Source of the DNA: Gammaproteobacteria bacterium
Lineage (GTDB): Bacteria; Pseudomonadota; Gammaproteobacteria; Eutrophobiales; Eutrophobiaceae
Assembly: GCA_965243115.1 (NCBI GenBank)
Contig: CBDEUD010000003.1
Location: 2,392,325 to 2,456,324 of the forward strand
DNA: 64,000 nt
Direction: 5' to 3'
Shown here piece by piece: positions 5,615 through 45,448 of this stretch; the stretch's first letter is position 1, and each line of letters opens with the position of its first letter. A program made the translations under genes and the position numbers. The notes below the pieces were generated by a model. The model made no database searches. It saw nothing but the letters and a program-made list of their open reading frames with translations, and had not been told where the DNA came from.

Positions 5615-5762
5615 AAGTACTCGCCATAGATGAAGCGAATCTTTCATATGACATGCTGCTTTGGGTGGCGCCCGGCAGTACTTTTGGGTCCGGCTGGCAT
5701 ATTCTGATATCAAACATACGCTGAAGGCGTAGAGATGGATTGCACAAACATGGCGCATCATT

Positions 5763-20080: not shown

Positions 20081-20109
20081 GAGTTACACATTTCCCGGTA
20101 TTGGGGGCT

Positions 20110-21990: not shown

Positions 21991-22001
21991 TCATAACCCA
22001 T

Positions 22002-22030
22002 AAAAAGAAACGGCGGGCATATGCCCACCG
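22002..22030 (-). terminator. rho-independent terminator downstream of the large TonB receptor gene
   Basis: On the minus strand: stem CGGTGGGCAT/ATGCCCGCCG (one mismatch, contains the palindrome GGGCATATGCCC) followed by TTTCTTTTT. Confidence 0.6.
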
Positions 22031-22053
22031 TCCCTTAACCAACCACTACGCCC

Positions 22054-25020: not shown

Positions 25021-25078
25021 GCAATACTCATTTTTTTTTCATGAAATCCTCATAAGTATAGTACATCAAGATATAAAA

Positions 25079-25135
25079 GATATATGAATATTTATTCATA
25101 ATTAATGTCGATATATATGAATATTTATTCATAAT
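25079..25135. promoter_or_regulatory. two direct copies of a 23-bp unit, each containing the palindrome ATGAATA-TT-TATTCAT, in the TonB receptor promoter region
   Basis: gatatatgaatatttattcataat at 25079-25102 and again at 25112-25135. Lies in the AT-rich region immediately upstream of the TonB receptor start codon. Confidence 0.55.
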
Positions 25136-25177
25136 GGATGTTGTTACTTAAATACAATATAGCCCGGACAAGAGGCT

Positions 25178-28134: not shown

Positions 28135-28145
28135 GCCGGCCGTTT

Positions 28146-29948: not shown

Positions 29949-29993
29949 ATAAACGATTCCTGAAACAAACGTGAGTAAAAATATCCCTGTTTC

Positions 29994-31169
29994 TCATTGC
30001 GTCCCGGAGGCAAATTCAGCCGATAGCAACAGGCCCATTTTGCGCCGGTAGCGGCTGTTCTGTTCCGGATTATCGGCCAGGCTGATGGCTTTACGCAGGT
30101 TTTTCTCAGCCTGTTTGTCATTACCGAGACGGCTGTGTATGGTCCCCTGTAAAAAGTAGAACCGGTGCTCCTTGTCATAGAGCCGGATGGCTGCGCGGGT
30201 ATGTTCAAGGGCAAGCAGGTACTCACGTCCGGCGAATGCCTCAAGCCCCATGCGATACCGGTAATAGGGATTTATTTCACGGTAGTACGCCACCCTCTTC
30301 TGCAGGGCCTGTGCCGTTTCCCGTTCACCCAGTTGCTCGTAGAGACGGGCGGCATTACTGGCAGCCGTCAGGTCGGAAGGATCATGCTGTAACGCCAACC
30401 GGTATGCCAGTTCCGCTGCTTCCAGTCTTCCGTAGCGCCGGTACACCGCGCCGAGGTTCGACCAGAAATAGGAAACACCGGGCTCAATGCTCAATGCCTT
30501 GACGATATAGCGAACGGCCTGCGCATGATTTTCCTGCTTCAGGTACTCCATGGCGCGGTTGTTGTAATGTTGCGCCAGGGCCAGGGAGTCGGAAATTTTT
30601 CTTTGCCTGTAACTGGTGTCATATTCCTCCATGGCTATGTCGATAACCTTATCCAGTTTATCAGGTAATCTTACTATCGCATTGATATGTTTGTACATTA
30701 TCAAGGTATTACTATCTGACATATCCCACGCGTAGGGGACATCAACTTCATTGTAATCGACCTTCAGTCCCACTTCCCTCATCAACGCGACAACAAAATT
30801 CGTGAACGCCAGGCAATTGGCGCGCCCATGGGAAAATACTTCCTGTACGGTATACGTCGCGGCGGCATCGTATTTCAGTCCCGGTGCTCCCGGCTGTAAA
30901 ACAGCTCTCAGCAGTTCCCTTAGTTTTACGTGGTCCGCAGCGCCCGGCGGGACTGCCCGGCGAGCAAACGCCGCCATCTCCGGTGACAGGTCCATCACCG
31001 GCTCGTCGGGCATCACCAGGGGCGCAGCGTCTTCACCAAACACGGGTTTGCCGCTGAGCAGCCATGCCTGTTGTGCGGCAGTTACCGGCCGATCCGCAAT
31101 CGGGGTATTGACTGCACAGCCGGAAAGCCACATCAGCAAAATAATGATGGCCGTATTAAATCTGGTCAT
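29994..31169 (-). CDS. transglutaminase-like domain lipoprotein with C-terminal TPR repeats
   Basis: Lipobox LMWLSGCAV. Catalytic-Cys context GRANCLAFTNFVVALMREVGL (GxCxxFA). TPR-like units in the C-terminal half. Confidence 0.7.
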   Translation of the reverse strand: MTRFNTAIIILLMWLSGCAVNTPIADRPVTAAQQAWLLSGKPVFGEDAAPLVMPDEPVMDLSPEMAAFARRAVPPGAADHVKLRELLRAVLQPGAPGLKYDAAATYTVQEVFSHGRANCLAFTNFVVALMREVGLKVDYNEVDVPYAWDMSDSNTLIMYKHINAIVRLPDKLDKVIDIAMEEYDTSYRQRKISDSLALAQHYNNRAMEYLKQENHAQAVRYIVKALSIEPGVSYFWSNLGAVYRRYGRLEAAELAYRLALQHDPSDLTAASNAARLYEQLGERETAQALQKRVAYYREINPYYRYRMGLEAFAGREYLLALEHTRAAIRLYDKEHRFYFLQGTIHSRLGNDKQAEKNLRKAISLADNPEQNSRYRRKMGLLLSAEFASGTQ

Positions 31170-31279
31170 TGGTACGCGTTAAACGATTACCGCCCGGTAA
31201 GTTATTATTTTAGCTTCTTCCTGCCACGCTGTGTATGAATCCCGGGCATAGCTGGTGGACAATTCATTAAATCTGTAAT

Positions 31280-32833
31280 TTGTTATGCTATCTTCCAACT
31301 AAACCAACAAATTCAGGCGTTATGTCAACTTCCGTCTCTATCGGCCGGCCGGCTGCAAAATCCGGAACTCATCCGCGTGGACTTTACACGCTGTTCTTTA
31401 CCGAGATGTGGGAGCGCTTCAGTTACTACGGCATGCGCGCATTGCTGGTGCTGTTCATGACCGCGGCCGTCACTGAGGGCGGCCTCGGCTTTGACGATGT
31501 GACTGCCACGGCGATTTACGGCCTGTACACGGCAGCGGTCTACGTGGCCGCGTTGCCGGGCGGCTGGATTGCCGACCGGTTGCTGGGCGCGCAGCGCGCC
31601 GTCTGGTACGGCGGAATGGTCATAATGCTCGGGCATTTCACCCTGGCGGTCCCTGCCCTGCCGGCATTTTATCTCGGCCTGGTATTTGTGGTGCTCGGCA
31701 CCGGGCTGCTGAAACCCAATATCAGCGCCATAGTGGGTGAACTGTATCCCGGTGGCGGTTCCGCCCGGGACGCCGGTTATACGATCTTCTACATGGGGAT
31801 AAACCTTGGCGCCATGATCGGCCCGCTCATCTGCAGCACACTGGGTGAAAGCGACCGCTTCGGCTGGCACTACGGTTTCGCCGCAGCCGGCATCGGCATG
31901 TTGTTCGGTTTGATACAGTTTCGCCTTACCCGCCACCACCTGGGTGATGCCGCACGTTATCCCGACTACCTGCGTCCGGACGGCAGCAGCAAGTCGCCGC
32001 CAAAATACGGCTGGCTTCTGGTCGGCATGGGCGTTGGATTGGTGGCTTTCATCACGGCCATGGCCCTGGGCGGCGTCATCACCGTTGATGCCCTGTCACT
32101 CGCAAAAGTATCCACCTATATCATTGCCGCCATAGCTGCGTTGTACTTCGCGGCAGTGTACGCGTTCGGCAAACTCAGCCTGGTCGAAAAGAAGTGCGTC
32201 GCCGTCATTATCATCCTGGTCATTGCCGAGGCCGTGTTCTGGTCGGGTTTTGAACAGGCCGGGTCATCTCTCAACCTGTTTGCACAGCGCTACACGGAGC
32301 GGATGGTGTTCGGCTTTGAAATACCCGCCGGCTGGTTCCAGAGCCTGAACCCAATGTTCATTCTGATACTTGCGCCGTTTTTTGCGGCGCTCTGGGTGCA
32401 TCTCGGCCGGCGCAACCTGGACCCGTCCATACCGGCGAAATTCGGCCTCGGGCTGATCCAGCTCGGCCTCGGTTTCCTGGTCATGTTCGTGGCATCGAAG
32501 TTTGTGGTCAGCGGGGAATCGGTATTGCCTACCTGGTTGTTCCTTACCTACCTGTTGCACACTACCGGCGAATTGTGCCTGAGTCCGGTAGGCTTGAGTT
32601 CGATCAGCAAACTGGCGCCTAAACGCTTTGTCAGCCAGATGATGGGAATCTGGTTTCTCGGCAGCGCGCTCGGCAATATCATAGCCGGGCTTGTGGCGGG
32701 CCGCTTTAACCCGGAGTCGCTGCACGATATGCCCAACCTGTATCTGCAAATCATTTCAATAACCGTTTTTGCCGGCGTGCTGTTGCTGCTTTTTACAAAA
32801 CCGATCAAGAAACTGATGGGAGAGAATTCTTGA
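31280..32833 (+). CDS. POT/PTR2-family proton-dependent di/tripeptide transporter
   Basis: PTR2 signature FTEMWERFSYYGMRALLVLFM. ~14 predicted TM segments. 517 aa. Confidence 0.9.
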   Translation: MLCYLPTKPTNSGVMSTSVSIGRPAAKSGTHPRGLYTLFFTEMWERFSYYGMRALLVLFMTAAVTEGGLGFDDVTATAIYGLYTAAVYVAALPGGWIADRLLGAQRAVWYGGMVIMLGHFTLAVPALPAFYLGLVFVVLGTGLLKPNISAIVGELYPGGGSARDAGYTIFYMGINLGAMIGPLICSTLGESDRFGWHYGFAAAGIGMLFGLIQFRLTRHHLGDAARYPDYLRPDGSSKSPPKYGWLLVGMGVGLVAFITAMALGGVITVDALSLAKVSTYIIAAIAALYFAAVYAFGKLSLVEKKCVAVIIILVIAEAVFWSGFEQAGSSLNLFAQRYTERMVFGFEIPAGWFQSLNPMFILILAPFFAALWVHLGRRNLDPSIPAKFGLGLIQLGLGFLVMFVASKFVVSGESVLPTWLFLTYLLHTTGELCLSPVGLSSISKLAPKRFVSQMMGIWFLGSALGNIIAGLVAGRFNPESLHDMPNLYLQIISITVFAGVLLLLFTKPIKKLMGENS

Positions 32834-32894
32834 AGGTAAAAACCGGAACCTTTCCGCACGTCCTCACAGCGGCCCTTGCCATGGCGAAATATAA

Positions 32895-34820
32895 ATGCCG
32901 GATATAAGGTCTGTTTGCCGTGCAGTAATCGTGCTGCTTTGTCTTGCAGGATGCCAGAACAATGATTCCGGCCGCTCTGAAGTCAAATCCGCTGAAGCTG
33001 ATGAACAGGTTGCTGATGAGCCCGGGCAAACCGCGCAAGGATTTGTCGCAACCGTTAACAGGCAACTGGAAGAGTTGCACAAGGAAAATGCCGCTGCCGC
33101 CTGGGTGCGGGTGACGTATATCACACCTGACACGGCGTTGATTGCAGCCAAATCACAGGAACGTCTGCTGGAGTTTCACAGCAAGTCCGTTAAACAAAGC
33201 AGAAAATTTACCGGCAGACCCATGGGTGACGATACTGCCCGCGCAATCAGGCTGTTGGTTCAGGGCACATCCATGCCGGCGCCTGACGATGCTGCGAAAC
33301 GGGCCGAACTGGCGGAAATCGCAACCCGCATGGAGGGGCAATACGGTGAAGGGAAATACTGCCCGGAAGGGCCTGATACCTGCAAGGACCTGCCGGAACT
33401 GGAGCGTATATTGGGAGATAAAAAACACGATTTCGCAGCACAGTTGGACGCCTGGGTCGGTTGGCGCACCATTTCGCCGAAAATGCGCAAGGATTACCGG
33501 CGTTTTGTAGAACTGACCAATGAAGGCGCCCGCGAACTCGGTTTCTCCGATCTCGGTGAAATGTGGCGCTCCGGATACGACATGCCGGCAGCGGAGTTCG
33601 AGCAGGATACGGAGCGTCTCTGGAGCCAGGTCAAGCCTCTTTATAACGAGTTGCATTGTTATGTGCGCGACAAGCTTGCCGATTTTTATGGTGAAGACAA
33701 AGTGTCGCGTACTGGCCGTATCCCCGCGCACCTGCTTGGCAACATGTGGGCCCAGGAATGGGCGGGAATTTATGACATCGTGGAACCGTACCCGGGTGTT
33801 GCCGATGTTGATGTAACTCCGTCCCTGAAGCGGCAACAGGCAGAACTGGAAAGCAGGTTCCAGGATAAATTCGGGGACAGGGTTGAAGCGAAGCGCCAGG
33901 CCGAAGCTGAAATGGCCGTCAAGATGGTTAAAATGGCAGAGGATTTTTATACGTCACTGGGCATGCAGCCATTGCCTGAGAATTTCTGGGAACGGTCCAT
34001 GCTTCTGAAACCGCGGGATCGTCAGGTGGTATGCCACGCCAGCGCCTGGACCATGGACGGCAAGGAAGACGTGCGTATCAAACAATGTATTGAGGCTACA
34101 GGTGAACAGTTGTGGACGGTATTCCATGAACTCGGCCACGTTTACTATGACTTGCTGTATAAAAATCAACCGCTCCTGTTTCAGGGCGGCGCCCATGACG
34201 GTTTTCATGAGGCAGTAGGCGACACCGTCAACCTGTCCATGACCCCCGAGTACCTGTACAAGCTCGAGCTGATCAGACAGACCAGCCAGGCCTCGCAGGC
34301 GCTGATCAATCAACAGATGAACCTGGCGCTGGACAAGGTCGCCTTCCTGCCGTTTGCAATGATGATAGACCGGTGGCGTTGGGCGGTGTTCGACGGGCGT
34401 ATCAAACCGAGTGATTATAATACGGCCTGGTGGGAGCTGCGCCGGAAGTACCAGGGTATCGAATCACCGGTAGAACGCACCGAGGCAGATTTCGATCCGG
34501 GAGCAAAATACCATATACCCGGGAACACGCCGTACATACGTTATTTTCTCTCGTTTGTAATTCAGTTCCAGTTTCACAAGGCGCTATGCGCTATCGCCGG
34601 TTTCAACGGACCGTTGCATCAATGCTCTATTTACGGTAACAAAATTGCCGGTAAACGATTCATGGACATGCTGGAACTTGGCGCCAGCCGGCCCTGGCAG
34701 GACGCGTTCGAGACACTGGCCGGCACGCGCCGGATGGATGCCTCCGCAATTATCGAATACTTTCAGCCCCTGACAAGCTGGCTCGGGGAGCAAAACCGGG
34801 ATCGGCAGTGCGGCTGGTAA
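32895..34820 (+). CDS. peptidyl-dipeptidase A (angiotensin-converting-enzyme-like, peptidase family M2), secreted/lipoprotein
   Basis: FHELGHVYYDLLYKNQPLLFQGGAHDGFHEAVGDTVNLS aligns with ACE [39 protein letters not shown] (HEXXH...HEAxGD). N-terminal signal/lipobox LLCLAGC. Confidence 0.85.
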   Translation: MPDIRSVCRAVIVLLCLAGCQNNDSGRSEVKSAEADEQVADEPGQTAQGFVATVNRQLEELHKENAAAAWVRVTYITPDTALIAAKSQERLLEFHSKSVKQSRKFTGRPMGDDTARAIRLLVQGTSMPAPDDAAKRAELAEIATRMEGQYGEGKYCPEGPDTCKDLPELERILGDKKHDFAAQLDAWVGWRTISPKMRKDYRRFVELTNEGARELGFSDLGEMWRSGYDMPAAEFEQDTERLWSQVKPLYNELHCYVRDKLADFYGEDKVSRTGRIPAHLLGNMWAQEWAGIYDIVEPYPGVADVDVTPSLKRQQAELESRFQDKFGDRVEAKRQAEAEMAVKMVKMAEDFYTSLGMQPLPENFWERSMLLKPRDRQVVCHASAWTMDGKEDVRIKQCIEATGEQLWTVFHELGHVYYDLLYKNQPLLFQGGAHDGFHEAVGDTVNLSMTPEYLYKLELIRQTSQASQALINQQMNLALDKVAFLPFAMMIDRWRWAVFDGRIKPSDYNTAWWELRRKYQGIESPVERTEADFDPGAKYHIPGNTPYIRYFLSFVIQFQFHKALCAIAGFNGPLHQCSIYGNKIAGKRFMDMLELGASRPWQDAFETLAGTRRMDASAIIEYFQPLTSWLGEQNRDRQCGW

Positions 34821-37839: not shown

Positions 37840-37855
37840 GCCTGCTTCCGCTCAG
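37836..37855. terminator. small hairpin CTGAGC-N8-GCTCAG spanning the convergent stop codons of ubiX and the flavoprotein gene
   Basis: 6-bp inverted repeat. The only intergenic sequence between these convergent genes is 12 bp, so this is weak as a terminator. Confidence 0.3.
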
Positions 37856-39291
37856 GCAAACAGGCCGCCGGGATCCAGGGCCTGTTTAAGCCTGCCGCGC
37901 AGTTCGGCCATGCCGGCGTTATCGTAGCCGGCCAGCGCCCGATCCAGGTAGCCGGTGCTGATGTGGCTGACGCCATAGCCCCGCTGCGCCATCGTATCGA
38001 CAAGTGTCTCAAGGCATGCGGCTGCCCTGGGCTCGGCGTCACGCTGGTAGGTCAAATAGACACGCTGGATGACGGAGCGCCAGCCGACGGCAAATTCCGT
38101 CAGGTAGTCGAACCCGCTGCTGCGCACCGTGTCGCCGACCAGCTTGTTCATCTTCAGGACCTGCCGGCCGTCGATAGGACTGACAAAACCGGCATACAGG
38201 TGCGCCTGGCCCGACCAGTTGTTGAGATTGCTGAACTCCGCGGAGGGCCGGCCGCGCATCATGCTCTCCCTGGCGGCCAGCACCGGGTTGCCTGCCCGCG
38301 TCTTCAGGTCGAGCACCGCAGCGCCCTGGATACCTGAAAAGGCTCCTTTTACCATGGGCCATAATACATCGACGTTAGGAGGGGTGTTGTATAACGCGCC
38401 GTACAGGGTCCATAGCCCCAGGCCATGATCCGCCCTCAACCTGTCCAGGTCGACAGTATTTCCGCTGATGTAATCCTGCCGGGAACTGAACGGACTCGCA
38501 TCCAGCGCGGGATTACTGATAACTACCGTGTTCGGTATGATCACGTTGACCTTGAATGAACGCAGTATCTCCACCGCCTGGGCCAGGTCGCCGTTACTCT
38601 CCAGGGTAACGGCAAAAGGCTGGTAGGCAGGCGGCGCCGGCATCAGCCATACCCCCATTTTTGTCACCACACCCAGGCTGGACTGGGTAAACAGGCCGTC
38701 CAGGTAGGGACCGTAGGCGTATTTCGCCAGTTGCCAGGTATTGCTCTTCGGCATGGCGCCCATGCCCAGCCTTACCAGTTCGCCGCCGGCCAGCATGACC
38801 TCCATCCCGCACTGCATCATCGTGTGGTCCCCGTAGGCGGTATACCCGAACTCCCGGGCGGTGATGCTGCCGGCTACGGAATTCAGGCCGTTCCTGTCGC
38901 AATCCACCCACAGGCCGGTATTGTTTTCCTCCAGGTACGCATTCAACTGCGCGTAACTCACGCCCGGTTCCACCAGGGCATAGGCGGCTTTAGCGTTAAC
39001 CTCCACGATGTTGTTCATGCGGGACTGGTCGATGACCAGGATAGCCTTCTCCGTAGCGCCGCTGACCATGGCGCCGTTTGCGGCGCTGTTGGGTAATACC
39101 CACAGGGAGACCGCGCTTTCTGCGGCGGCCGCCAGCACTGACCTTAACTGTTCAATGTCTTCGGGAAGGACTACGCCGGCGGGCGTCTTGCCAAGCCGCG
39201 CGTACCCCCCCTTGGCGATAGCGTCGTTGCCGGACAAAACGGCATCACTGCCCAGTTGATCCCTCAGTTTATTAATCAGTTTTATTGACAT
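37852..39291 (-). CDS. FAD-linked oxidase, vanillyl-alcohol oxidase/p-cresol methylhydroxylase (VAO/PCMH) family, cytoplasmic paralog
   Basis: Clear paralog of the 41484-43154 ORF (EPGVSY..L..YL...LW.D....G.SV.G...E.G.GYT.YGDH). No signal peptide. 479 aa. Confidence 0.75.
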   Translation of the reverse strand: MSIKLINKLRDQLGSDAVLSGNDAIAKGGYARLGKTPAGVVLPEDIEQLRSVLAAAAESAVSLWVLPNSAANGAMVSGATEKAILVIDQSRMNNIVEVNAKAAYALVEPGVSYAQLNAYLEENNTGLWVDCDRNGLNSVAGSITAREFGYTAYGDHTMMQCGMEVMLAGGELVRLGMGAMPKSNTWQLAKYAYGPYLDGLFTQSSLGVVTKMGVWLMPAPPAYQPFAVTLESNGDLAQAVEILRSFKVNVIIPNTVVISNPALDASPFSSRQDYISGNTVDLDRLRADHGLGLWTLYGALYNTPPNVDVLWPMVKGAFSGIQGAAVLDLKTRAGNPVLAARESMMRGRPSAEFSNLNNWSGQAHLYAGFVSPIDGRQVLKMNKLVGDTVRSSGFDYLTEFAVGWRSVIQRVYLTYQRDAEPRAAACLETLVDTMAQRGYGVSHISTGYLDRALAGYDNAGMAELRGRLKQALDPGGLFA

Positions 39292-39362
39292 TATACATTA
39301 AAAATATATCTCAACATACTGTTTAAAAAAATTTAATTTTTTCATTTTCTATTCCCTAATCC

Positions 39363-39596
39363 CTATCCCCTATCCGCAGGCGGAATATTTTGCTTGTACT
39401 TCTCCGGATGGTCCGGATCGGCGCGGAACCACGCCTCCCGCTCGGCGTAATCAATCGATTCCGCGGGTTCGCTGTCGCGCCAGGTGAACGAACAGCGCCG
39501 GCAATAATATACGGTCCAGACCACTTCACCCCCTTCCCTGCCCTGGTATTCGGTGCGCAGGTGTTCCTGCGCTGATTGGCAACGGGGGCAGTTCAC
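39363..39596 (-). CDS. phenolic acid decarboxylase subunit D (BsdD/VdcD-like)
   Basis: MNCPRCQS...CRRCSFTWRDSEPAE zinc-ribbon motif. Immediately downstream of, and overlapping, the UbiD-family gene. Confidence 0.75.
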   Translation of the reverse strand: MNCPRCQSAQEHLRTEYQGREGGEVVWTVYYCRRCSFTWRDSEPAESIDYAEREAWFRADPDHPEKYKQNIPPADRG

Positions 39597-41077
39597 CGGT
39601 TTTCCGCCTCTTTCTGCAGCCGCATGATGTATTTGGCCAGGTCATCGATTTCGGCGCCTGCGGGAGGCGATACGATCTTGGCATCTCCGCCGATGGGATC
39701 GGGCGGCATGAAACTGGTGGCGTCGATGATCAGGCGGTGGCCCTTCCCCGGGATCTCCGCGGCCGGGTCGATGATCACCATGGGCATATTGGGAATGACG
39801 ATGATATCGCTGGCGCGGGTGCGCGTGGACAAGGCCCACATTACCTGGTTGAGGTCAAAGGGATCGACGTCGTCATCCACCATGATCAGGTTCTTCAGGT
39901 ACATCAGGCCGTGGGGCGTGCCCAGGGCCCGCATGGCCACCGATTTGGCAAATCCGGCGAACCGGTTCTTCACCGATATGATCCCGGTCAGGCCGTGCTG
40001 GTACAGGGCGTTCACCGCGACGACTTCGGGAAAGTTTTCCTTCAACTGGGCATAGATCGGGGCGCAGGTGCTGAGCCCGATCAGGGTATCGTGCTCGGTC
40101 CAGCCCTTGCCGATATAAATACTCTCGAAAATGGGGTCGGCACGGTGCGAAACGGCGGTCACGCGGAACAGGGGGACATGGCGAATACCGCTGTAGCTGC
40201 CCGGGAATTCGCCGAACGGCCCTTCCAGGCAGCGCCGGTTGTTCATAAGCTCAGCTTCAATCACCATTTCCGCGCCGGCAAGCACATCCAGGCCGTTGCC
40301 GGATTGGGTCAGTTCAATGGGGCTGCCCATCATCTGCGAGGCGTAGGCAAATTCCGATTCATCGTAATTTACCGGGGTGGCCGCGAACATGGCCATGGCG
40401 GGGTGGTTGCCGAGCATCACGGCGATCTTCAGCGGGACATCGTCCTGTTCCGCCATACGTATCTGCTGCGCCATATCGTGATTCGGGACAGACAACAAGG
40501 TGAACTGGTCCGGTCCCTGTACCTGGATGCGATAGATCCCCACGTTCTGCTTGGCAAAATTGTCCGGGTCGCGGGGGTCGCGGCTGACGATGTTGGCCTT
40601 GGCGATATAGAACCCGCCGTCCAGGGCATTGATGCGGTACAGCGGCAACAGGCCATACAGGTTGATATCCGTTTCGACCCTGTTTTCATGCACCGGCGCG
40701 TGTTCCTGTTTCACCCTGCTGATCAGCGGTTTGTCGGAACCCCAGCGCCCCGCCAGGTCGTAGAAAAGTTCCTTGATGCTGGTGCCTTTCGGCTTGCCCA
40801 GCAGCAGGGCTATATTGGAAAAACTGCCGTGTACTCCCACGACCAGTCTTTTGCCCGGGTAACCGCGGATCTTGTCGAATACGATCGCCGGGCCGGTCAT
40901 GGCGTCGCGCCCTGCCGCGACGACAACCTTGCGGATATCGGGTTCGGGCAGCACGGTTTCGGGCCAGGTAATGCACTGGCCGTACTCAGCCAGCAGTTCG
41001 AGATAGTCTCTTAAATTATGTATCCGCTCGGCTATGGCCCGGGCCTCGGGTGATAACGTGACGGTTTCCATGTCCAT
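39593..41077 (-). CDS. UbiD-family (prFMN-dependent) aromatic acid decarboxylase, VdcC/BsdC-like
   Basis: 494 aa. UbiD-family sequence character throughout. Flanked by the D subunit downstream and ubiX nearby. Confidence 0.85.
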   Translation of the reverse strand: MDMETVTLSPEARAIAERIHNLRDYLELLAEYGQCITWPETVLPEPDIRKVVVAAGRDAMTGPAIVFDKIRGYPGKRLVVGVHGSFSNIALLLGKPKGTSIKELFYDLAGRWGSDKPLISRVKQEHAPVHENRVETDINLYGLLPLYRINALDGGFYIAKANIVSRDPRDPDNFAKQNVGIYRIQVQGPDQFTLLSVPNHDMAQQIRMAEQDDVPLKIAVMLGNHPAMAMFAATPVNYDESEFAYASQMMGSPIELTQSGNGLDVLAGAEMVIEAELMNNRRCLEGPFGEFPGSYSGIRHVPLFRVTAVSHRADPIFESIYIGKGWTEHDTLIGLSTCAPIYAQLKENFPEVVAVNALYQHGLTGIISVKNRFAGFAKSVAMRALGTPHGLMYLKNLIMVDDDVDPFDLNQVMWALSTRTRASDIIVIPNMPMVIIDPAAEIPGKGHRLIIDATSFMPPDPIGGDAKIVSPPAGAEIDDLAKYIMRLQKEAENR

Positions 41078-41460
41078 CAGTGATCTCCTCCCGTGATATA
41101 GTCAGTCAGCAGGTCCAGTTGGGCGTCGTCGATTTCACTGTGGCGAAACGGCGGCATCAGTTTGAAGCCCTCCCGCACCACCAGTTTTACATAGTCCGGC
41201 TGCAGGTTATCCCTGTCAAGCAGCGGCGCCTGCTCTGCACTCATCCTCTCCTCCAGGCGCATGGTGCCCGGGTGGCCGGGCCCGGCACCGTGGCAGGCGA
41301 TGCAATACAAATCGAACAAGGCCTTGCCATCCAGATCGCTCATCTGCATGTCCGTATGTCCTTGTGCAGGTTCGCCTGTCCCCGCAGTTTCATCGTTACC
41401 ACACCCTGCCAGCAACAGCAGGACTGCCAGGAAGGTTGCGTATCGGTATCCGGTCATCAT
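41077..41460 (-). CDS. c-type cytochrome lipoprotein (PchC-like partner of the flavoprotein)
   Basis: Lipobox LLLLAGCGN. Heme-binding site CIACHG. 127 aa, directly downstream of the Tat-exported PCMH-family flavoprotein. Confidence 0.7.
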   Translation of the reverse strand: MMTGYRYATFLAVLLLLAGCGNDETAGTGEPAQGHTDMQMSDLDGKALFDLYCIACHGAGPGHPGTMRLEERMSAEQAPLLDRDNLQPDYVKLVVREGFKLMPPFRHSEIDDAQLDLLTDYITGGDH

Positions 41461-41483
41461 GAACGTTCAACGCATTGCGATTT

Positions 41484-43154
41484 TTAAGCCGGCCAGATAC
41501 CGCTCTTCCCCGGAGACAGGATCCCGGCCGGATCCAGCGCCTGCTTCAACCGGTGGTGCAGTTTCCACAATGCTCCGTCATTCCAGTTATAGGTGCCGGC
41601 AATCTCGTCCATGAAATTCAGGTGGGTGCGATACTCCCCGTAGCCCTGTTCGGCAAAATCGTTGACCAGGTGTCCGAAACATTCGTGGGCGCGGCGCCGC
41701 TCATCGTCATCCAGGCGATCGAAGATGAGCTGGAAGATGTTCAGGAGTTCCCGCCAACCCACCAGGAATTCACCGATATAGTCGAAGCCGTATTCGTTCG
41801 CCCGGTCCCTTATCAGGGTGAACTGTTTCATGGAATCCTCGCCGGTTACCGGTGAACGGGGTGAGAAATCGATATGCGCGCCGCTGCCTACCCAGTTCAT
41901 CAGGCTGAACTCGGTCATGTTCGGCACGCCTTGCATCAGCTTGACCCGGTAGCGCCAGGCCGGATCGCCGGGCCGGTCGCCCTCGAAGAAGAACTTTGCG
42001 CCGGGAATACTGCGGAACGCCTCTTCCAGGACTTTCCAGTTGTTGTCCATGATCGGTTCCGGCCCGTACAGCGCGCCGTAGAAATTCCACATGCCGATAT
42101 TCAGGTCGTCCGCCATCTTCTGGCGATGGCGCATCGGCATGGGGCCTTTGCCGCTGTAATACTGTTTCCTGGTTGCGTTGGGGGCCGCTTCCCAGATCAG
42201 GCCCACCGTGGTTGCAGCATTGGGGATCAGCATGTTGAGCCGCAACGGGCCCACGATCTCGGTAATCTGGTAAAGATCCTCCTCACGGGGGAAAGTCACC
42301 AGGTAAGGACGGTAACCCGGGGGTTCCGGCATCAACCAGATTCCCACCTTGGTGATGATGCCGAAATTCGACTGGGTGAACATGCCTTCAACCCATGGCC
42401 CGCAGCCGTACTTGTACAGGCTGGACGTGGTTGAACCTGACAGGGCGCCCATGCCGGTATCGACGACGGTGCCGTCTGCCAGCACCACCTGCATGCCGCA
42501 ATTCATCAGCAGGTGGTCGCCGTAGGGCGTGTAGCCGGCGCCGTGTTCCGACAGGTTGCCGAGGACGCTGCCCCAGCCGGGGGCTGCCGGGTCGATCCAC
42601 AGTTTGCTGCCGCGTTGTTGCAGGTAATTGTACAATTCAAAGTAGCTGACTCCCGGTTCGACCACTGCGTAACCGTGTTCCTCATTGACCTCGATGATGC
42701 GTTTCATCCGGTTCAGATCGAGAACAAAAAAACCGGGCTTCCTGGGCGCCGGACCGCCGTAGGCATAATTCTTGCCGGTGGAAACGGTCCACAGGGGGAT
42801 TTGGTAACTGCGGGCAATTTTCAGGATGGCCTGGATCTCTTCAACGGTCCTGGGCGCCACCGCAGCGGACGGCATGTTCGCCTCATCGGGCAAAGTGGAA
42901 TAGACGTCCCGGTAAGTCCTCAAATCCCCTTCGTCGTCAGTGAAAACCCACTTGTCACCGATGGCATGGCGCAATTCCGCAACGGCCCGGTTGAACTCGG
43001 CAGGCGTCAGAGACTCCGGCAGGGGTTTTTCAAATCCCTCTTCCGTCTCCGCCGCAGCGGTGTCCACAGCCAGGGGCACACCGGCAGCCAGGAATGACGA
43101 TTTCAGGAATTTCCGTCTCGTTACCATAAAACAGCCCTGACAGGAATACTGCAA
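41484..43154 (-). CDS. Tat-exported VAO/PCMH-family flavoprotein subunit (p-cresol methylhydroxylase / 4-alkylphenol hydroxylase PchF-like)
   Basis: Twin-arginine signal TRRKFLKSSFLAAGVPLAVDTAAAE. FAD-binding PCMH-type domain. 556 aa. Confidence 0.75.
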   Translation of the reverse strand: MQYSCQGCFMVTRRKFLKSSFLAAGVPLAVDTAAAETEEGFEKPLPESLTPAEFNRAVAELRHAIGDKWVFTDDEGDLRTYRDVYSTLPDEANMPSAAVAPRTVEEIQAILKIARSYQIPLWTVSTGKNYAYGGPAPRKPGFFVLDLNRMKRIIEVNEEHGYAVVEPGVSYFELYNYLQQRGSKLWIDPAAPGWGSVLGNLSEHGAGYTPYGDHLLMNCGMQVVLADGTVVDTGMGALSGSTTSSLYKYGCGPWVEGMFTQSNFGIITKVGIWLMPEPPGYRPYLVTFPREEDLYQITEIVGPLRLNMLIPNAATTVGLIWEAAPNATRKQYYSGKGPMPMRHRQKMADDLNIGMWNFYGALYGPEPIMDNNWKVLEEAFRSIPGAKFFFEGDRPGDPAWRYRVKLMQGVPNMTEFSLMNWVGSGAHIDFSPRSPVTGEDSMKQFTLIRDRANEYGFDYIGEFLVGWRELLNIFQLIFDRLDDDERRRAHECFGHLVNDFAEQGYGEYRTHLNFMDEIAGTYNWNDGALWKLHHRLKQALDPAGILSPGKSGIWPA

Positions 43155-43186
43155 AATTGATTTAACATGAAATTACGCTAAATTCA

Positions 43187-43274
43187 GGACAACCATAAAT
43201 TTAAAACATTTCTTAATTTATGGTTGTCCCAAATTAGGTTTAGTCTCAATTTATGGTTGTCCCAAATTAGGTTT
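43187..43274. promoter_or_regulatory. compound repeat: a 15-bp perfect inverted repeat plus two direct 27-bp repeats, candidate operator
   Basis: GGACAACCATAAATT (43187-43201) and its reverse complement AATTTATGGTTGTCC (43215-43229). The 27-mer aatttatggttgtcccaaattaggttt occurs at 43215-43241 and again at 43248-43274 (33-bp period). Confidence 0.6.
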
Positions 43275-43284
43275 CTGTGGTTAA

Positions 43285-44028
43285 TTAATCCAGGTTGAGT
43301 TTCAGGTGTGAGCCGTCACACCAGGGTTTGGTCTTGGAGTATTTGCAGCCGCACAGGGCCACGTGCTGGAACTCGTCCAGTTGGAATTGCATGGGTACGC
43401 GCCTCGTTTCCTTGTGGGAACCGTCACAGAACGGCTGGTTTTTGGAGCGGCCGCAGGCGCACCAGTAATACTCGCCCTTGTCCAGGTTCATGAGGTAGGG
43501 TGAATTCCGGCTGCCGTCCAGGAATTTGGACTTTACCCAACCCTCCTCGTACGGGCTCACCATGTTCAGCTTCAGTTCCATGGACTGGAACAGCCAGCGC
43601 CCGTCCTGTTTTACACACCGGCAGTCGTACGTGCCGCCGATCCAGTGGGATTCCGCCTCGTCGGTATGCGGGTTGGGCACGGTTGCCGATTCCCACAGGT
43701 ACCAGAAAACCGTGGCGCTGAGGCCGTCGGGAGCGATATCAATCAACGGTGAAATCATGTAATGCAATGACCACCAGATCTTCTCGCCGGCGATCCCGTG
43801 CAGGCCTTTTGCGAGTCTGTCCCGGCCATGATATTTGCCGAAGCCCTTGCATTCCCAGGTGCCGTCTTCGGCAAAACACGGACCGATGACTTCGGGATCA
43901 TTGCCGCGGTCACAACCCCTGGCGTACGTAACGATCAGGCGCTGTATCGCCTCCACGTCCTCGAGGTGGGTCAACTTGGCATCCAGTCTTTCCAGCAGTC
44001 CCTTTATTTCAGCAAGTTCTTCGCTCAT
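43285..44028 (-). CDS. NTF2/SnoaL-like domain fused to tandem CDGSH-type [2Fe-2S] domains
   Basis: N-terminal ~160 aa has NTF2-like fold character. C-terminus carries two CDGSH motifs, CACGRSKNQPFCDGSH and CGCKYSKTKPWCDGSH. Confidence 0.7.
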   Translation of the reverse strand: MSEELAEIKGLLERLDAKLTHLEDVEAIQRLIVTYARGCDRGNDPEVIGPCFAEDGTWECKGFGKYHGRDRLAKGLHGIAGEKIWWSLHYMISPLIDIAPDGLSATVFWYLWESATVPNPHTDEAESHWIGGTYDCRCVKQDGRWLFQSMELKLNMVSPYEEGWVKSKFLDGSRNSPYLMNLDKGEYYWCACGRSKNQPFCDGSHKETRRVPMQFQLDEFQHVALCGCKYSKTKPWCDGSHLKLNLD

Positions 44029-44054
44029 AGCAATTCCCTGGCCCCTGCCCCCTG

Positions 44055-45299
44055 TCAGGCTACCCGCCTGGATTTCTGTTTGCGTCCTTCAAGCTCTGCT
44101 GCGTAAGCCTTGTAACGGGTTATCAGCCAGCGGTTGAATTGCGGCAGGGTTGCCTCTTTCGGGGCATAACGGCCCCGGGGTGCAAACCGTGAGCGCAGCC
44201 CTTTGTGAACGGCGGTGTTGGCGCCGGTATCCTGGTCGTTCAGGGTTTCCAGGCCGATGACCACGGATTTGAAAATAATATCGAAATTATCCATGCGCAG
44301 GGTGGATTTGGGATAGATGAAACCGACACGGATGGTCATGGCGTTGGCCCCCTGGGGCAGGATGCAATAATAGAAACAACCGTCCGGCACACAGCCGAAG
44401 AACAGGTTGGGCAGGATACAGGCAAACATCACCCGCTTGCGTTCGTTCTCGGTCAGCCCTTCGATGACCGGGAACAGGCAATGGAATGCAGCGGTGAAAT
44501 TACCGTCCAGTTCCAGGAAACCGGTAGGATGATAGACGGCGCCGTCATCGAAATCGTCCCATTCGGCAAACGTGGCCAGCTTGGAAGGGGCAAAATCGTG
44601 GGGACCCTTGTGCAGGTACCAGGTGTGATGAGGTTCAATGGCGTTTTCGTGCATGAACTTCCAGTTCCACGGACTTGGCCCCCAGTCTACCGTCGGCACG
44701 CCGCCCATCTCTGCCAGGTTATGGTTTTCAACTTCTTTTGTGAGTCGTTTCAGACGCGGGGCCAGGGGTTTCGCCTTGCCGTCCATGTTGATGAAGATGA
44801 AGCCGTTCCACAGTTCGGTACGTAACGTGGGCAGGCAATATTTTTTTTGTAATTCACCCAGGCTGGCGTGTGCATCCATTTCCGGGGCGCTGACCAGCTT
44901 GCCCGTTTCATCGTAGGACCAGCCGTGGAAGGGACAGGTAAAGACACGGGTATTGCCTGTTTCCTCGCCCAGCACGTGTCCGCGGTGCTGGCATACGGCG
45001 GACATGACACGCACACCACCGTCGTCCTTGCGTTGCACCAGCAGCGGGTCTTCATTGATCGAGACGGAGACGTAATCGCCCGGACGGGGTATGGTGCCGA
45101 TGTGTCCCACACAGATCCACTCCCGGTCCCAGACAGCCCGCTTTTCAAATTCAAACCATTCTTCGGAGGTATACACTTCCGGCGGCATGGAGACGCAGTC
45201 CTTCAATTCAACATTGGACTCGTCAAGCCGTCCGAGGATTTCATACAGGTGTTCAGTCAACCTGACATCAGGTAAGGTGTGCGTGACATAATCGGCCAT
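44055..45299 (-). CDS. Rieske non-heme iron oxygenase alpha subunit
   Basis: Rieske motif CQHRGHV...CPFHGWSY. 414 aa. Only 26 bp upstream of the NTF2-CDGSH gene on the same strand. Confidence 0.8.
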   Translation of the reverse strand: MADYVTHTLPDVRLTEHLYEILGRLDESNVELKDCVSMPPEVYTSEEWFEFEKRAVWDREWICVGHIGTIPRPGDYVSVSINEDPLLVQRKDDGGVRVMSAVCQHRGHVLGEETGNTRVFTCPFHGWSYDETGKLVSAPEMDAHASLGELQKKYCLPTLRTELWNGFIFINMDGKAKPLAPRLKRLTKEVENHNLAEMGGVPTVDWGPSPWNWKFMHENAIEPHHTWYLHKGPHDFAPSKLATFAEWDDFDDGAVYHPTGFLELDGNFTAAFHCLFPVIEGLTENERKRVMFACILPNLFFGCVPDGCFYYCILPQGANAMTIRVGFIYPKSTLRMDNFDIIFKSVVIGLETLNDQDTGANTAVHKGLRSRFAPRGRYAPKEATLPQFNRWLITRYKAYAAELEGRKQKSRRVA

Positions 45300-45448
45300 G
45301 ATAACTCCCCCTGGTAAATACGGGATTATGTGAAATAAATTATGCGGTTAGTTCCGCTTTGGCAGGTAATAATATACATTAAATCGTTCAATATTGAAAA
45401 AAACCGGCGTGCGGTTAATTCCTTACCATCAGCGAGCAGGAGAATATC

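What the first reader, a model, noticed from the sequence alone, without database searches (positions are those of the whole stretch)
43285..45299. Rieske oxygenase paired with an NTF2-like::tandem-CDGSH fusion protein, a possible new beta-subunit/electron-carrier arrangement
The Rieske alpha gene is followed after 26 bp, on the same strand, by a 247-aa protein. Its N-terminal ~160 aa are NTF2/SnoaL-like, the fold of ring-hydroxylating dioxygenase beta subunits. Its C-terminal ~70 aa carry two CDGSH [2Fe-2S] motifs (CACGRSKNQPFCDGSH and CGCKYSKTKPWCDGSH). No conventional ferredoxin or reductase for any of the three Rieske oxygenases is present in the window. A beta-like subunit fused to mitoNEET-type clusters could deliver electrons directly to the Rieske centre. 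I do not know of a described Rieske system with this architecture.
Basis: partly seen in the sequence, partly recalled or inferred. Interest (0 to 1): 0.65.

Follow-up and report, generated by a model that had tools for sequence, protein, structure and literature searches.

The report
Oxygenase paired with iron-sulfur helper protein
A bacterial oxygen-inserting (Rieske) enzyme is encoded, here and in dozens of distant bacteria, directly next to a helper protein that joins a small enzyme-like barrel domain to two mitoNEET-type iron-sulfur clusters; I found no description of this pairing, and it may give bacterial CDGSH proteins their first clear job.

Summary
Window 44055-45299(-) encodes an intact Rieske oxygenase alpha subunit. 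Twenty-six bases downstream, 43285-44028(-) encodes a 247-aa SnoaL_4 (NTF2-fold) domain fused to two complete CDGSH [2Fe-2S] motifs.

The pairing is not chance. Of 54 genomic loci with the full-length fusion, 47 have the orthologous alpha directly upstream, often with overlapping stop and start codons. Only one evaluable locus has no Rieske gene nearby.

The N-terminal domain is not an orthodox oxygenase beta subunit. It has no Ring_hydroxyl_B match. Its nearest relatives by sequence and fold are the trimeric enzymes LdpA, LinA, scytalone dehydratase and BaiE, and it keeps their Asp-His dyad and tyrosine pair. Related Rieske-linked NTF2 partners lack CDGSH or carry a second NTF2 domain, so NTF2 is the constant partner and CDGSH an add-on.

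No ferredoxin or reductase gene lies in the window or in 30 related loci. Thirteen alphaproteobacterial or actinobacterial loci carry a Rieske-type ferredoxin next to alpha. Only there does the first CDGSH motif decay.

Best reading: a dedicated partner subunit whose CDGSH pair relays electrons to alpha, with an NTF2 pocket that probably still binds or processes a phenolic ligand. This is a new variant of a known kind, it is untested biochemically, and my literature searches found no description of it.

The parts
45371..45400 (-). Promoter-like -35/-10 pair upstream of the alpha gene. A terminator-like hairpin of the preceding gene lies at 45402-45416.
   Evidence: Consensus scan only, 9 of 12 matches, not above shuffled expectation. 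Weak evidence.
44055..45299 (-). Rieske non-heme-iron oxygenase alpha subunit, 414 aa. Rieske ligands are C103, H105, C122 and H125. The iron site is H225, H230 and D357, with E222 in the place of the bridging carboxylate.
44029..44054 (-). 26-nt intergenic spacer between the alpha and partner genes
   Evidence: Sequence. In related loci the spacer ranges from a 4-nt overlap to 408 nt.
43519..44028 (-). N-terminal SnoaL_4 (NTF2-fold) domain of the partner protein, residues 1-170. It keeps Tyr35, Asp40, His89 and Tyr134, which align with LdpA Tyr35, Asp40, His97 and Tyr147.
43288..43503 (-). C-terminal tandem-CDGSH module, residues 176-247, predicted to bind two [2Fe-2S] clusters through 3 Cys + 1 His each
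   Evidence: Pfam zf-CDGSH in two stretches. Profile hit to tandem CISD 3tbn E 3e-25 and CISD3 6avj E 8e-19. All eight ligands are invariant in 26 diverse members. High-confidence AF2 model with fixed domain orientation, pTM 0.89.
43414..43461 (-). CDGSH motif 1: CACGRSKNQPFCDGSH (residues 190-205)
   Evidence: Translation
43306..43353 (-). CDGSH motif 2: CGCKYSKTKPWCDGSH (residues 226-241)
   Evidence: Translation
43183..43266 (.). Intergenic repeat element: the 19-mer TTTGGGACAACCATAAATT in two direct copies and one inverted copy. It lies between the partner gene and the next gene and may act as a hairpin or terminator.
   Evidence: Three matches against 0.03 expected; these are the only copies in the window.
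41484..43154 (-). Context gene: VAO/PCMH-type FAD oxidase, 556 aa, whose N-terminus looks like a twin-arginine export signal (my reading, not tested)
   Evidence: Pfam FAD_binding_4 + FAD-oxidase_C. Same position in 16 close loci, and present in Binataceae loci.
41077..41460 (-). Context gene: c-type cytochrome, 127 aa, with a lipoprotein-like signal (my reading). Probable partner of the flavoprotein.
   Evidence: Pfam Cytochrome_CBB3; synteny
39363..41077 (-). Context genes: hydroxyarylic acid decarboxylase subunits VdcC (39593-41077) and VdcD (39363-39596)
   Evidence: NCBIfam VdcC 656.9 bits (cut-off 650) and VdcD E 1.7e-16; synteny
37852..39291 (-). Context gene: second VAO-type FAD oxidase, 479 aa
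   Evidence: Pfam FAD_binding_4; synteny

Best explanation
The two genes encode the core of a non-canonical Rieske oxygenase.

Shown:
- The alpha subunit has a complete Rieske centre and a complete 2-His-1-carboxylate iron site.
- The protein encoded next to it is a dedicated, co-inherited partner made of an LdpA/LinA-type SnoaL_4 NTF2 domain and a tandem CDGSH module with all eight cluster ligands.

Inferred:
1. The two proteins form a stoichiometric complex. The NTF2 domain sits in the gene position of a beta subunit, and its nearest relatives are trimers, which would match an alpha3 oxygenase.
2. The two CDGSH [2Fe-2S] clusters act as a built-in electron relay or entry point for the alpha Rieske centre. 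They would be fed by a donor encoded elsewhere, for example reduced flavin from a flavin reductase (as shown for mitoNEET) or a general ferredoxin. In Alphaproteobacteria and Actinobacteria an adjacent Rieske-type ferredoxin supplements or takes over this job.
3. The NTF2 domain is more than scaffolding. It keeps the Asp-His dyad and the two tyrosines that hold a phenolate in LdpA, so it probably binds or chemically processes the phenolic substrate or the oxygenated product. Possible reactions are an aromatising dehydration or the breakdown of an unstable intermediate.

In this window the module sits in a phenolic-catabolism cluster: a PCMH-like flavocytochrome, the VdcCD decarboxylase and a second VAO-type oxidase. 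The likely substrate is therefore a simple phenol, such as the decarboxylation product of a hydroxybenzoate.
For: Architecture and intact ligands.

Family size: 277 homologues, of which more than 100 clusters at 90% identity have both domains.

Synteny across 54 fusion loci:
- 44 have the orthologous alpha (51-94% identity) directly upstream on the same strand.
- 3 more have it on truncated or frameshifted loci.
- 3 have a second alpha subfamily directly upstream.
- 2 have Rieske genes within 4 kb.
- 1 is cut by a contig end.
- 1 has none.

Translational coupling: stop and start codons overlap by 1 or 4 nt in six loci. The same is seen in L063.

Co-inheritance: alpha and partner pairwise distances correlate at r=0.94.

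NTF2 is the constant partner, with variable additions:
- alpha - 113-aa protein - NTF2 (L055-L060)
- alpha - NTF2 - NTF2 (L068)
- alpha - NTF2::NTF2 fusion (L063)

Electron-relay reading:
- No Rieske-type ferredoxin (tblastn) and no convincing plant-type ferredoxin (motif scan) lies in 30 Gamma/Binatia/Delta loci or in the window, and all 30 keep both CDGSH motifs. No ferredoxin or reductase gene is conserved among the neighbours.
- 13 Alpha/Actino loci carry an HcaC/AndAb-like Rieske ferredoxin divergent from alpha. Only there is CDGSH motif 1 degenerate: 5 of 13 against 0 of 30, Fisher p=0.0013, though all five lie in one clade.
- CDGSH clusters are proven one-electron carriers reducible by FMNH2 from flavin reductase and NADH (PMC9490426).
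- There is a precedent for tandem CDGSH fused to a redox enzyme domain (type 5 CISD, PMC3174974).

Retained pocket:
- Asp40 and His89 are invariant, and Tyr35 and Tyr134 nearly so, down to 19% identity.
- They align with the catalytically essential LdpA residues.
- AF2 gives a rigid two-domain model, pLDDT 95.4, pTM 0.89.

Phenolic context. Extradiol or intradiol dioxygenase and HpaB genes lie next to the module in other lineages.
Against: - No physical interaction was tested or could be modelled.
- The nearest solved relatives of alpha (3n0q, CntA) are entries deposited as the oxygenase subunit alone; from my own knowledge they work without any small subunit. A structural partner is therefore not obviously needed.
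- The NTF2 domain fails the beta-subunit family tests.
- Absence of a nearby ferredoxin is weak evidence, because the CDGSH-less sister loci L055-L060 also have none.
- Eight loci have both a Rieske ferredoxin and two intact CDGSH motifs, so CDGSH is not simply a ferredoxin substitute.
- The mitoNEET potential is about -30 mV. Oxygenase Rieske centres sit near the low end of the Rieske range, about -150 mV. Transfer would be uphill unless these clusters are tuned lower.
- No reductase is conserved near any locus.
Confidence: 0.45

Rival explanations
1. Sequential-enzyme reading. The NTF2-CDGSH protein is a separate, free-standing enzyme of the LdpA/LinA/scytalone-dehydratase type. It acts on the product of the Rieske oxygenase, for example by dehydrating a phenol-derived cis-diol or hydroxy-cyclohexenone to a catechol or hydroquinone, or by eliminating a leaving group. 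The CDGSH clusters would be structural or regulatory for that enzyme and would not feed electrons to alpha.
For: - Nearest relatives by sequence and fold are catalytic trimers.
- The Asp-His dyad and Tyr pair essential in LdpA are invariant here.
- Solved structures nearest to alpha are deposited as the oxygenase subunit alone; from my own knowledge these enzymes need no small subunit.
- CDGSH-less versions exist, so the NTF2 function does not depend on clusters.
- SnoaL_4 proteins of the same superfamily work without Rieske partners.
Against: - LdpA's second catalytic motif (Glu143) is replaced by Ile130.
- Neighbours other than alpha change completely between lineages, whereas alpha never does. 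Overlapping stop and start codons are more typical of subunits than of consecutive pathway steps.
- No known NTF2 enzyme needs Fe-S clusters.
- Loss of CDGSH motif 1 tracks with the presence of a ferredoxin, which points to electron supply.
Confidence: 0.22
2. Sensor or repair reading. The CDGSH module is not an electron wire. It is either a labile cluster donor that repairs or loads the alpha Rieske centre, or a redox, O2 or NO sensor that gates the oxygenase. Both roles are proposed for eukaryotic NEET proteins. The NTF2 domain docks it to alpha.
For: - MitoNEET-type clusters are redox- and NO-responsive (PMC9490426).
- The potential mismatch with oxygenase Rieske centres.
- Both CDGSH motifs are kept intact in eight loci that already have a dedicated ferredoxin.
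Against: - Motif 1 decays specifically where a ferredoxin is present, which is easier to explain by redundancy in electron supply.
- Two clusters held rigidly against the NTF2 domain (pTM 0.89) look like a relay.
- No evidence bears directly on cluster transfer.
Confidence: 0.13
3. Orthodox reading. The N-terminal domain is a true homologue of ring-hydroxylating dioxygenase beta subunits (Ring_hydroxyl_B) with a purely structural role, and it has simply acquired CDGSH clusters.
For: - NTF2 fold.
- The gene lies immediately downstream of alpha.
- Canonical alpha3beta3 enzymes (NagG, NDO, TPADO, BphA) are almost as close to alpha as the beta-less ones.
- In alphaproteobacterial loci the trio alpha / NTF2 / Rieske ferredoxin mirrors class IIB oxygenase gene sets.
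Against: - No Ring_hydroxyl_B match at E<=10.
- Invariant enzyme-type pocket residues are unexplained by a purely structural role.
Confidence: 0.08
4. Coincidental neighbours with no functional link.
For: None, beyond the absence of experimental data.
Against: The adjacency is conserved in about 50 loci from at least five phylum- or class-level groups, while all other neighbours vary.
Confidence: 0.01

Closest known systems
Canonical alpha3beta3 Rieske oxygenases (naphthalene, biphenyl and terephthalate dioxygenases; salicylate 5-hydroxylase NagGH)
   Same: - Alpha has a Rieske domain and a Ring_hydroxyl_A catalytic domain.
- A small NTF2-fold protein is encoded immediately downstream of alpha.
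- Some loci add a Rieske-type ferredoxin, as in class IIB systems.
   Different: - The small protein is not Ring_hydroxyl_B but SnoaL_4.
- It keeps an enzyme-type Asp-His/Tyr pocket.
- It carries two CDGSH clusters, which I found reported for no oxygenase subunit.
Rieske monooxygenases solved as the oxygenase subunit alone, of the CntA / GbcA / 3N0Q type
   Same: - The best NCBIfam partial hit is GbcA.
- Similar length, about 410 aa.
   Different: - From my own knowledge, those enzymes work as alpha3 with a separate reductase and have no NTF2 partner.
- Here an NTF2 partner is co-inherited in nearly every locus.
LdpA diarylpropane lyase and the related SnoaL_4 enzymes LinA, scytalone dehydratase and BaiE
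   Same: - Best sequence and fold matches to the N-terminal domain.
- The Tyr35/Asp40/His/Tyr pocket residues are conserved.
- Homology extends into the start of LdpA's C-terminal arm.
   Different: - LdpA's second motif (Glu143) is absent.
- Those enzymes are cofactor-less, free-standing homotrimers not linked to Rieske genes.
- Here the C-terminal arm is replaced by a CDGSH module.
Tandem-motif CDGSH proteins: type 6 CISD (e.g. Magnetospirillum MmCISD, 3TBN) and human CISD3/MiNT
   Same: - Two CxC-x8-CDGSH motifs about 20 residues apart.
- Profile E 3e-25 to 3tbn and 8e-19 to 6avj.
- The type definition is in PMC3174974.
   Different: - Those are stand-alone proteins of about 80-130 aa.
- From my own knowledge, the bacterial ones have no assigned function.
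- This one is fused to an NTF2 domain and tied to an oxygenase.
Type 5 CISD (tandem CDGSH fused to a glutamate-synthase FMN-binding domain) and type 7 CISD (fused to DUF1271)
   Same: A precedent for a CDGSH module fused to another domain in bacteria, in type 5 a redox enzyme domain (PMC3174974). Some family members are even mis-named 'glutamate synthase'.
   Different: The fusion partner and the order differ. Here the NTF2 domain is N-terminal. This fusion is not among the seven described types.

Membership tests
Rieske non-heme-iron oxygenase alpha subunit (Ring_hydroxyl_A class) | Rieske [2Fe-2S] motif CxH...CxxH | tested here: met
   C103, H105, C122 and H125 are invariant in 81 homologues. 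Pfam Rieske E 1.4e-20.
Rieske non-heme-iron oxygenase alpha subunit (Ring_hydroxyl_A class) | Mononuclear iron 2-His-1-carboxylate site, plus a carboxylate bridging to the Rieske centre | tested here: met
   H225, H230 and D357 are invariant. E222 lies three residues before H225, in the place of the bridging Asp. The assignment is by motif position and established knowledge of NDO.
Rieske non-heme-iron oxygenase alpha subunit (Ring_hydroxyl_A class) | Catalytic-domain fold | tested here: met
   [not shown]
Ring-hydroxylating dioxygenase beta subunit (Pfam Ring_hydroxyl_B) | Match to the family profile | tested here: not met
   No hit at E<=0.01 or E<=10. No beta chain among 49 PDB profile hits at E<=1.
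Ring-hydroxylating dioxygenase beta subunit (Pfam Ring_hydroxyl_B) | NTF2 fold | tested here: met
   [not shown]
Ring-hydroxylating dioxygenase beta subunit (Pfam Ring_hydroxyl_B) | Closest structural relatives are beta subunits | tested here: not met
   [not shown]
Ring-hydroxylating dioxygenase beta subunit (Pfam Ring_hydroxyl_B) | Encoded directly downstream of alpha | tested here: met
   Here and in 44 or more loci
Ring-hydroxylating dioxygenase beta subunit (Pfam Ring_hydroxyl_B) | Forms the beta3 base of an alpha3beta3 hexamer | not testable with these tools
It needs a multimer model or biochemistry.
SnoaL_4 NTF2 enzymes (LdpA / LinA / BaiE / scytalone dehydratase) | Match to the SnoaL_4 profile above the curated cut-off | tested here: met
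   81.8 bits against a cut-off of 24
SnoaL_4 NTF2 enzymes (LdpA / LinA / BaiE / scytalone dehydratase) | Asp-His catalytic dyad | tested here: met
   Asp40 and His89 align with LdpA Asp40 and His97 (roles from PMC9942872). Both are invariant.
SnoaL_4 NTF2 enzymes (LdpA / LinA / BaiE / scytalone dehydratase) | Tyrosine oxyanion hole | tested here: met
   Tyr35 and Tyr134 align with LdpA Tyr35 and Tyr147. Tyr35 is invariant and Tyr134 at least 90% conserved.
SnoaL_4 NTF2 enzymes (LdpA / LinA / BaiE / scytalone dehydratase) | LdpA-specific second motif (Glu143) needed for deformylation | tested here: not met
   Ile130 aligns with Glu143. The protein is therefore not an LdpA orthologue.
SnoaL_4 NTF2 enzymes (LdpA / LinA / BaiE / scytalone dehydratase) | Homotrimer with catalytic activity | not testable with these tools
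   Needs the purified protein
Tandem-motif CDGSH iron-sulfur domain (type 6 CISD) | Two complete CDGSH motifs (3 Cys + 1 His each) about 20 residues apart | tested here: met
   Residues 190-205 and 226-241, with 20 residues between them. The definition is in PMC3174974.
Tandem-motif CDGSH iron-sulfur domain (type 6 CISD) | Sequence similarity to solved tandem CISDs | tested here: met
   3tbn E 3e-25; 6avj E 8e-19
Tandem-motif CDGSH iron-sulfur domain (type 6 CISD) | Binds two redox-active [2Fe-2S] clusters | not testable with these tools
   Needs UV-vis, EPR or Moessbauer spectroscopy on the protein
Type 5 CISD (CDGSH + glutamate synthase FMN domain) | [quoted passage not shown] | tested here: not met
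   Only SnoaL_4 and zf-CDGSH were found

The most novel reading that the evidence does not exclude
A new class of Rieske oxygenase in which an enzyme-derived NTF2 subunit carries a built-in pair of mitoNEET-type clusters. These would wire the alpha3 core directly to a generic cellular reductant such as free reduced flavin, a flavin reductase or a quinol. That would make a dedicated ferredoxin unnecessary. The same subunit's Asp-His/Tyr pocket would process the phenolic product. This would be the first defined enzymatic role for a bacterial CDGSH protein, and a bifunctional 'electron wire plus second active site' subunit.
Probability: 0.25. Interest if true: 0.8.

Novelty: new variant of a known kind. 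Interest (0 to 1): 0.6.

Why it matters
From my own knowledge, CDGSH (NEET) proteins are widespread in bacteria and none has an established physiological partner. This conserved gene pair offers a concrete, testable one.

For Rieske oxygenases it would add a component architecture outside the current class I-III (and Kweon) schemes. It would show that the 'small subunit' slot can be filled by a different NTF2 lineage that still looks catalytic.

There is also a practical side. Rieske oxygenases are limited in biocatalysis by their multi-protein electron chains, so a self-wired variant would be useful. The module also marks phenolic-catabolism clusters in uncultured sponge symbionts, Binatia and soil bacteria. 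Cultured Novosphingobium strains carry it and could be used for genetics.

Tried and rejected
1. **Complex prediction.** I built a paired alpha + linker + partner alignment from 20 loci (A3).
2. **Foldseek against AFDB50** was not available.
3. **Literature.** No paper holds CDGSH with 'Rieske oxygenase' or with SnoaL. The broader search gave only a general Fe-S review. 'Rieske' + 'SnoaL-like' gave nothing relevant.
4. **Ring_hydroxyl_B membership** was rejected.
5. **Conserved ferredoxin or reductase among neighbours.** Clustering of 887 ORFs from 62 loci found only alpha and the partner conserved across lineages.
6. **Triple-SnoaL_4 proteins (620-720 aa)** were considered as a covalent 'beta3' analogue. 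Their genes lie beside DUF8021 or PQQ dehydrogenase genes, not Rieske genes, so they do not bear on the question.
7. **P0235 and P0120.** P0235 joins the alpha N-terminal half to the CDGSH tail, and P0120 joins NMT1 to the CDGSH tail. Both sit on 1-2 kb contigs and look like assembly chimeras or deletions. They were not used as evidence of natural alpha-CDGSH fusion.
8. **Fold of alpha as a discriminator.** Alphas deposited without a small subunit and alpha3beta3 relatives score almost equally, so this was not decisive.
Full report
**1. What is in the sequence**

The ORF list shows two adjacent genes on the minus strand. One is 44055-45299 (414 aa) and the other is 43285-44028 (247 aa). They are separated by 26 nt.

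Pfam assigns Rieske (E 1.4e-20) and Ring_hydroxyl_A (E 1.1e-24) to the first. To the second it assigns SnoaL_4 (residues 21-150, E 5.5e-23) and two zf-CDGSH stretches (E 2.1e-20).

In an alignment of 81 alpha homologues, the four Rieske ligands (C103, H105, C122, H125) are invariant. So are the iron-site residues H225, H230 and D357, with E222 in the bridging position. The oxygenase therefore looks catalytically competent.

The window does hold three Rieske oxygenase genes: 2495-3664 of the VanA_C type, 5763-6944, and this one. I found no conventional ferredoxin or reductase. I checked this by Pfam or NCBIfam scans of the ORFs of at least 200 aa that I took to be genes (two of them match no family), by a motif scan of all ORFs of at least 60 aa, and by tblastn with a Rieske ferredoxin.

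**2. The pairing is conserved**

A search of 5.8 billion proteins found 277 homologues of the 247-aa protein. More than 100 clusters at 90% identity keep both domains, at 49-93% identity to the query. Their source names are only generic: 'CDGSH-type Zn-finger protein', 'nuclear transport factor 2 family protein', and once 'glutamate synthase'.

A scan of one genome per species returned 62 loci. They come from Gammaproteobacteria MAGs (several from sponge bins), Binatia and Binataceae, 'delta proteobacteria', Stellaceae, Sphingomonas and Novosphingobium (including cultured strains), other Alphaproteobacteria and an actinobacterium.

I ran tblastn of the window's proteins against these loci. The 54 loci with a full-length fusion break down as follows:

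| Situation | Loci |
|---|---|
| Orthologous alpha (51-94% identity) immediately upstream, same strand | 44 |
| Same, on truncated or frameshifted loci | 3 |
| A second alpha subfamily (25-28% identity to the window's alpha) immediately upstream: L015, L019, L031 | 3 |
| Rieske genes within 4 kb: L035, L050 | 2 |
| Cut by a contig end: L018 | 1 |
| No Rieske gene: L020 | 1 |

- In six loci the alpha stop codon and the partner start codon overlap by 1 or 4 nt.
- Pairwise distances of alpha and partner correlate at r=0.94 over the 44 loci.
- Clustering all ORFs of the 62 loci shows that only these two genes are conserved across lineages. The other neighbours change with lineage:
  - VAO/PCMH plus cytochrome c, VdcCD, HpaB and an extradiol dioxygenase in Gamma and Binataceae loci.
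  - A molybdenum hydroxylase, an intradiol dioxygenase, PhyH and MMPL in 'delta' loci.
  - TauD, an amidase, an isochorismatase, MFS and MarR in sphingomonads.

**3. What the N-terminal domain is**

It is an NTF2-fold domain, but it is not a member of the oxygenase beta-subunit family.

- Pfam gives no Ring_hydroxyl_B hit at E<=0.01 or even at E<=10.
- A family profile searched against all PDB sequences finds LdpA (8abt/8abu/8abv, E about 6e-9), LinA, BaiE and a putative scytalone dehydratase. It finds no beta chain among 49 hits at E<=1.
- The AF2 model is confident (pLDDT 95.4, pTM 0.89).

LdpA is a cofactor-less trimeric lyase acting on a lignin-derived bis-phenol. Its essential residues are the His97-Asp40 dyad, Tyr35 and Tyr147 (which hold the phenolate), and Glu143 (PMC9942872).

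The residue-level alignment puts the window's Tyr35, Asp40, His89 and Tyr134 on LdpA Tyr35, Asp40, His97 and Tyr147. Ile130 replaces Glu143. Asp40 and His89 are invariant. Tyr35 is invariant and Tyr134 at least 90% conserved in 95 family members. All four persist in distant Rieske-linked NTF2 partners down to 19% identity.

The genomic link to the oxygenase nevertheless stands.

**4. NTF2 is the constant partner and CDGSH is an add-on**

Homologues of the NTF2 domain at 39-50% identity occur in other arrangements, still beside Rieske alpha genes:

- alpha, then a 113-aa protein with no Pfam or NCBIfam match, then NTF2 without CDGSH (L055-L060).
- alpha, then two separate NTF2 genes (L068).
- alpha, then an NTF2-NTF2 fusion with a 4-nt overlap to alpha (L063).

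A search of 1.84 billion representatives with the NTF2 domain alone gave 16 hits at E<=1e-30. These are mostly stand-alone proteins of 148-194 aa, and the fusion family collapses to essentially one representative.

More distant triple-SnoaL_4 proteins are not Rieske-linked.

**5. What the CDGSH module is**

It matches the tandem-motif (type 6) CISD fold: 3tbn at E 3e-25 and human CISD3 at E 8e-19. Its two motifs are 20 residues apart, as in the published definition (PMC3174974).

That paper lists fusions to a glutamate-synthase FMN domain (type 5) and to DUF1271 (type 7). It lists no NTF2 fusion.

All eight ligands are invariant in 26 diverse members.

**6. Evidence bearing on electron transfer**

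For:
- No ferredoxin or reductase gene is conserved near the module.
- Thirty Gamma/Binatia/Delta loci, and the window, have no Rieske-type ferredoxin by tblastn and no convincing plant-type ferredoxin by motif scan. All thirty keep both motifs.
- Thirteen alphaproteobacterial or actinobacterial loci have an HcaC/AndAb-like Rieske ferredoxin divergently transcribed right next to alpha.
- Only among those thirteen is CDGSH motif 1 degenerate. The ligands are lost in L045, L051 and L054, and the motif is shortened in L047 and L049. That is 5 of 13 against 0 of 30 (Fisher p=0.0013), but all five lie in one sphingomonad clade, so this is at most a few events.
- MitoNEET clusters carry electrons from FMNH2, made by flavin reductase and NADH, to acceptors (PMC9490426).

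Against:
- Eight loci keep both motifs together with the ferredoxin.
- The CDGSH-less loci L055-L060 also lack any ferredoxin, so absence of the gene proves little.
- The mitoNEET potential is about -30 mV. Rieske centres span -150 to +400 mV, and from established knowledge the oxygenase centres sit at the low end. Transfer would be uphill unless these clusters are tuned.

**7. Most likely mechanism**

Shown:
- An intact oxygenase alpha.
- A dedicated, co-inherited partner made of an LdpA/LinA-type NTF2 domain and a complete tandem-CDGSH module.

Inferred:
- A stoichiometric alpha-partner complex.
- CDGSH clusters acting as electron relay or entry point, fed by a donor encoded elsewhere and partly redundant with a Rieske ferredoxin where one is present.
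- An NTF2 pocket that still binds or processes a phenolic ligand.

In this window the module heads a co-directional cluster. The cluster holds a PCMH-like flavoprotein and c-type cytochrome whose N-termini look like export signals (my reading), the VdcCD hydroxyarylic-acid decarboxylase, and a second VAO-type oxidase. The same order is found in 16 close relatives.

A simple phenol released by decarboxylation is therefore a reasonable substrate guess. Catechol-cleaving dioxygenases lie next to the module in other lineages, which fits a catechol-type product. The substrate assignment is speculative.

I give the composite explanation 0.45. The rivals are a free-standing downstream enzyme (0.22), a sensor or repair module (0.13), an orthodox beta subunit (0.08) and coincidence (0.01).

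**8. Novelty**

No paper in the searched library connects CDGSH with Rieske oxygenases or SnoaL domains. No curated NCBIfam model covers the protein; the only hit is a sub-threshold one to TIGR02246. Source annotations are generic.

Both halves belong to known families, and the whole is plainly a Rieske oxygenase system. I therefore rate it a new variant of a known kind, with moderate to high interest. The strength of the case rests on comparative genomics, and no physical or biochemical step has been tested.

**9. Limits**

- The complex could not be modelled.
- High-GC loci made my simple ORF calls noisy, so neighbour inventories may miss small genes.
- The correlation between the ferredoxin and motif decay is phylogenetically clustered.

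Noticed in passing
window 2495-6944: A reductive-dehalogenase-like gene (4595-5614; NCBIfam RDH subfamily E 3e-31, 4Fe-4S dicluster) sits between two Rieske oxygenase genes: 2495-3664 (VanA_C type) and 5763-6944 (GbcA-like). A 210-aa ORF with no family match lies at 3818-4450. Close relatives of the window are sponge-symbiont MAGs, so this may be an aerobic debromination and catabolism cluster for sponge bromophenolics.
   Followed up: partly
window 43183-43266: The 19-mer TTTGGGACAACCATAAATT occurs as two direct copies and one inverted copy between the partner gene and the VAO gene, and nowhere else in the window (3 matches against 0.03 expected). It may be a hairpin or terminator, or a small repeat element.
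   Followed up: partly
L037, L039-L042, L044-L047, L049, L051, L053, L054 (about 100-400 bp upstream of alpha, opposite strand): A Rieske-type ferredoxin of about 104-113 aa (HcaC/AndAb-like) is divergently transcribed from the alpha gene, only in alphaproteobacterial and actinobacterial loci. In five of these loci (L045, L047, L049, L051, L054) the first CDGSH motif of the partner is degenerate.
   Followed up: yes
L060:7627-7971; also L015, L019, L031, L042, L050, L055-L061: A protein family of about 113 aa with no Pfam or NCBIfam match always accompanies a second Rieske alpha subfamily ('type 2', 25-33% identical to the window's alpha). It is often found with an EthD-domain protein. It is absent from the window.
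   Followed up: partly
L063:6221-7273 and L068:1385-2397: Other partner architectures lie next to related alpha genes: an NTF2-NTF2 fusion of 350 aa, and two separate NTF2 genes.
   Followed up: partly
L064-L067 (proteins P0247, P0251, P0262): Proteins of 620-720 aa made of three tandem SnoaL_4 domains (27-32% identical to the window's NTF2 domain) lie beside DUF8021 and PQQ-dehydrogenase genes, not Rieske genes. They may be covalently linked versions of the usual NTF2 trimer.
   Followed up: partly
proteins P0235 and P0120 (contigs of 1-2 kb): Two odd proteins join the CDGSH tail of this family to the N-terminal half of alpha (P0235) or to an NMT1 domain (P0120). They are probably assembly chimeras or deletions rather than natural fusions.
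   Followed up: partly
window 37852-43154: A phenolic-catabolism set lies downstream of the pair: a PCMH-like flavoprotein whose N-terminus looks like a twin-arginine signal, a c-type cytochrome with a lipoprotein-like signal (both signals are my reading), VdcC and VdcD, and a second VAO-type oxidase. No VdcB/UbiX-type gene was recognised among the ORFs of at least 200 aa that I scanned.
   Followed up: partly
window 18635-34820: Genes typical of host-associated (sponge) symbionts: two TPR-sulfotransferase fusions (18635-20080, 25178-27163), a TPR-2OG-Fe(II) oxygenase (20110-21990), a DUF885 protein (28146-29948) and an angiotensin-converting-enzyme-like M2 peptidase (32895-34820).
   Followed up: no
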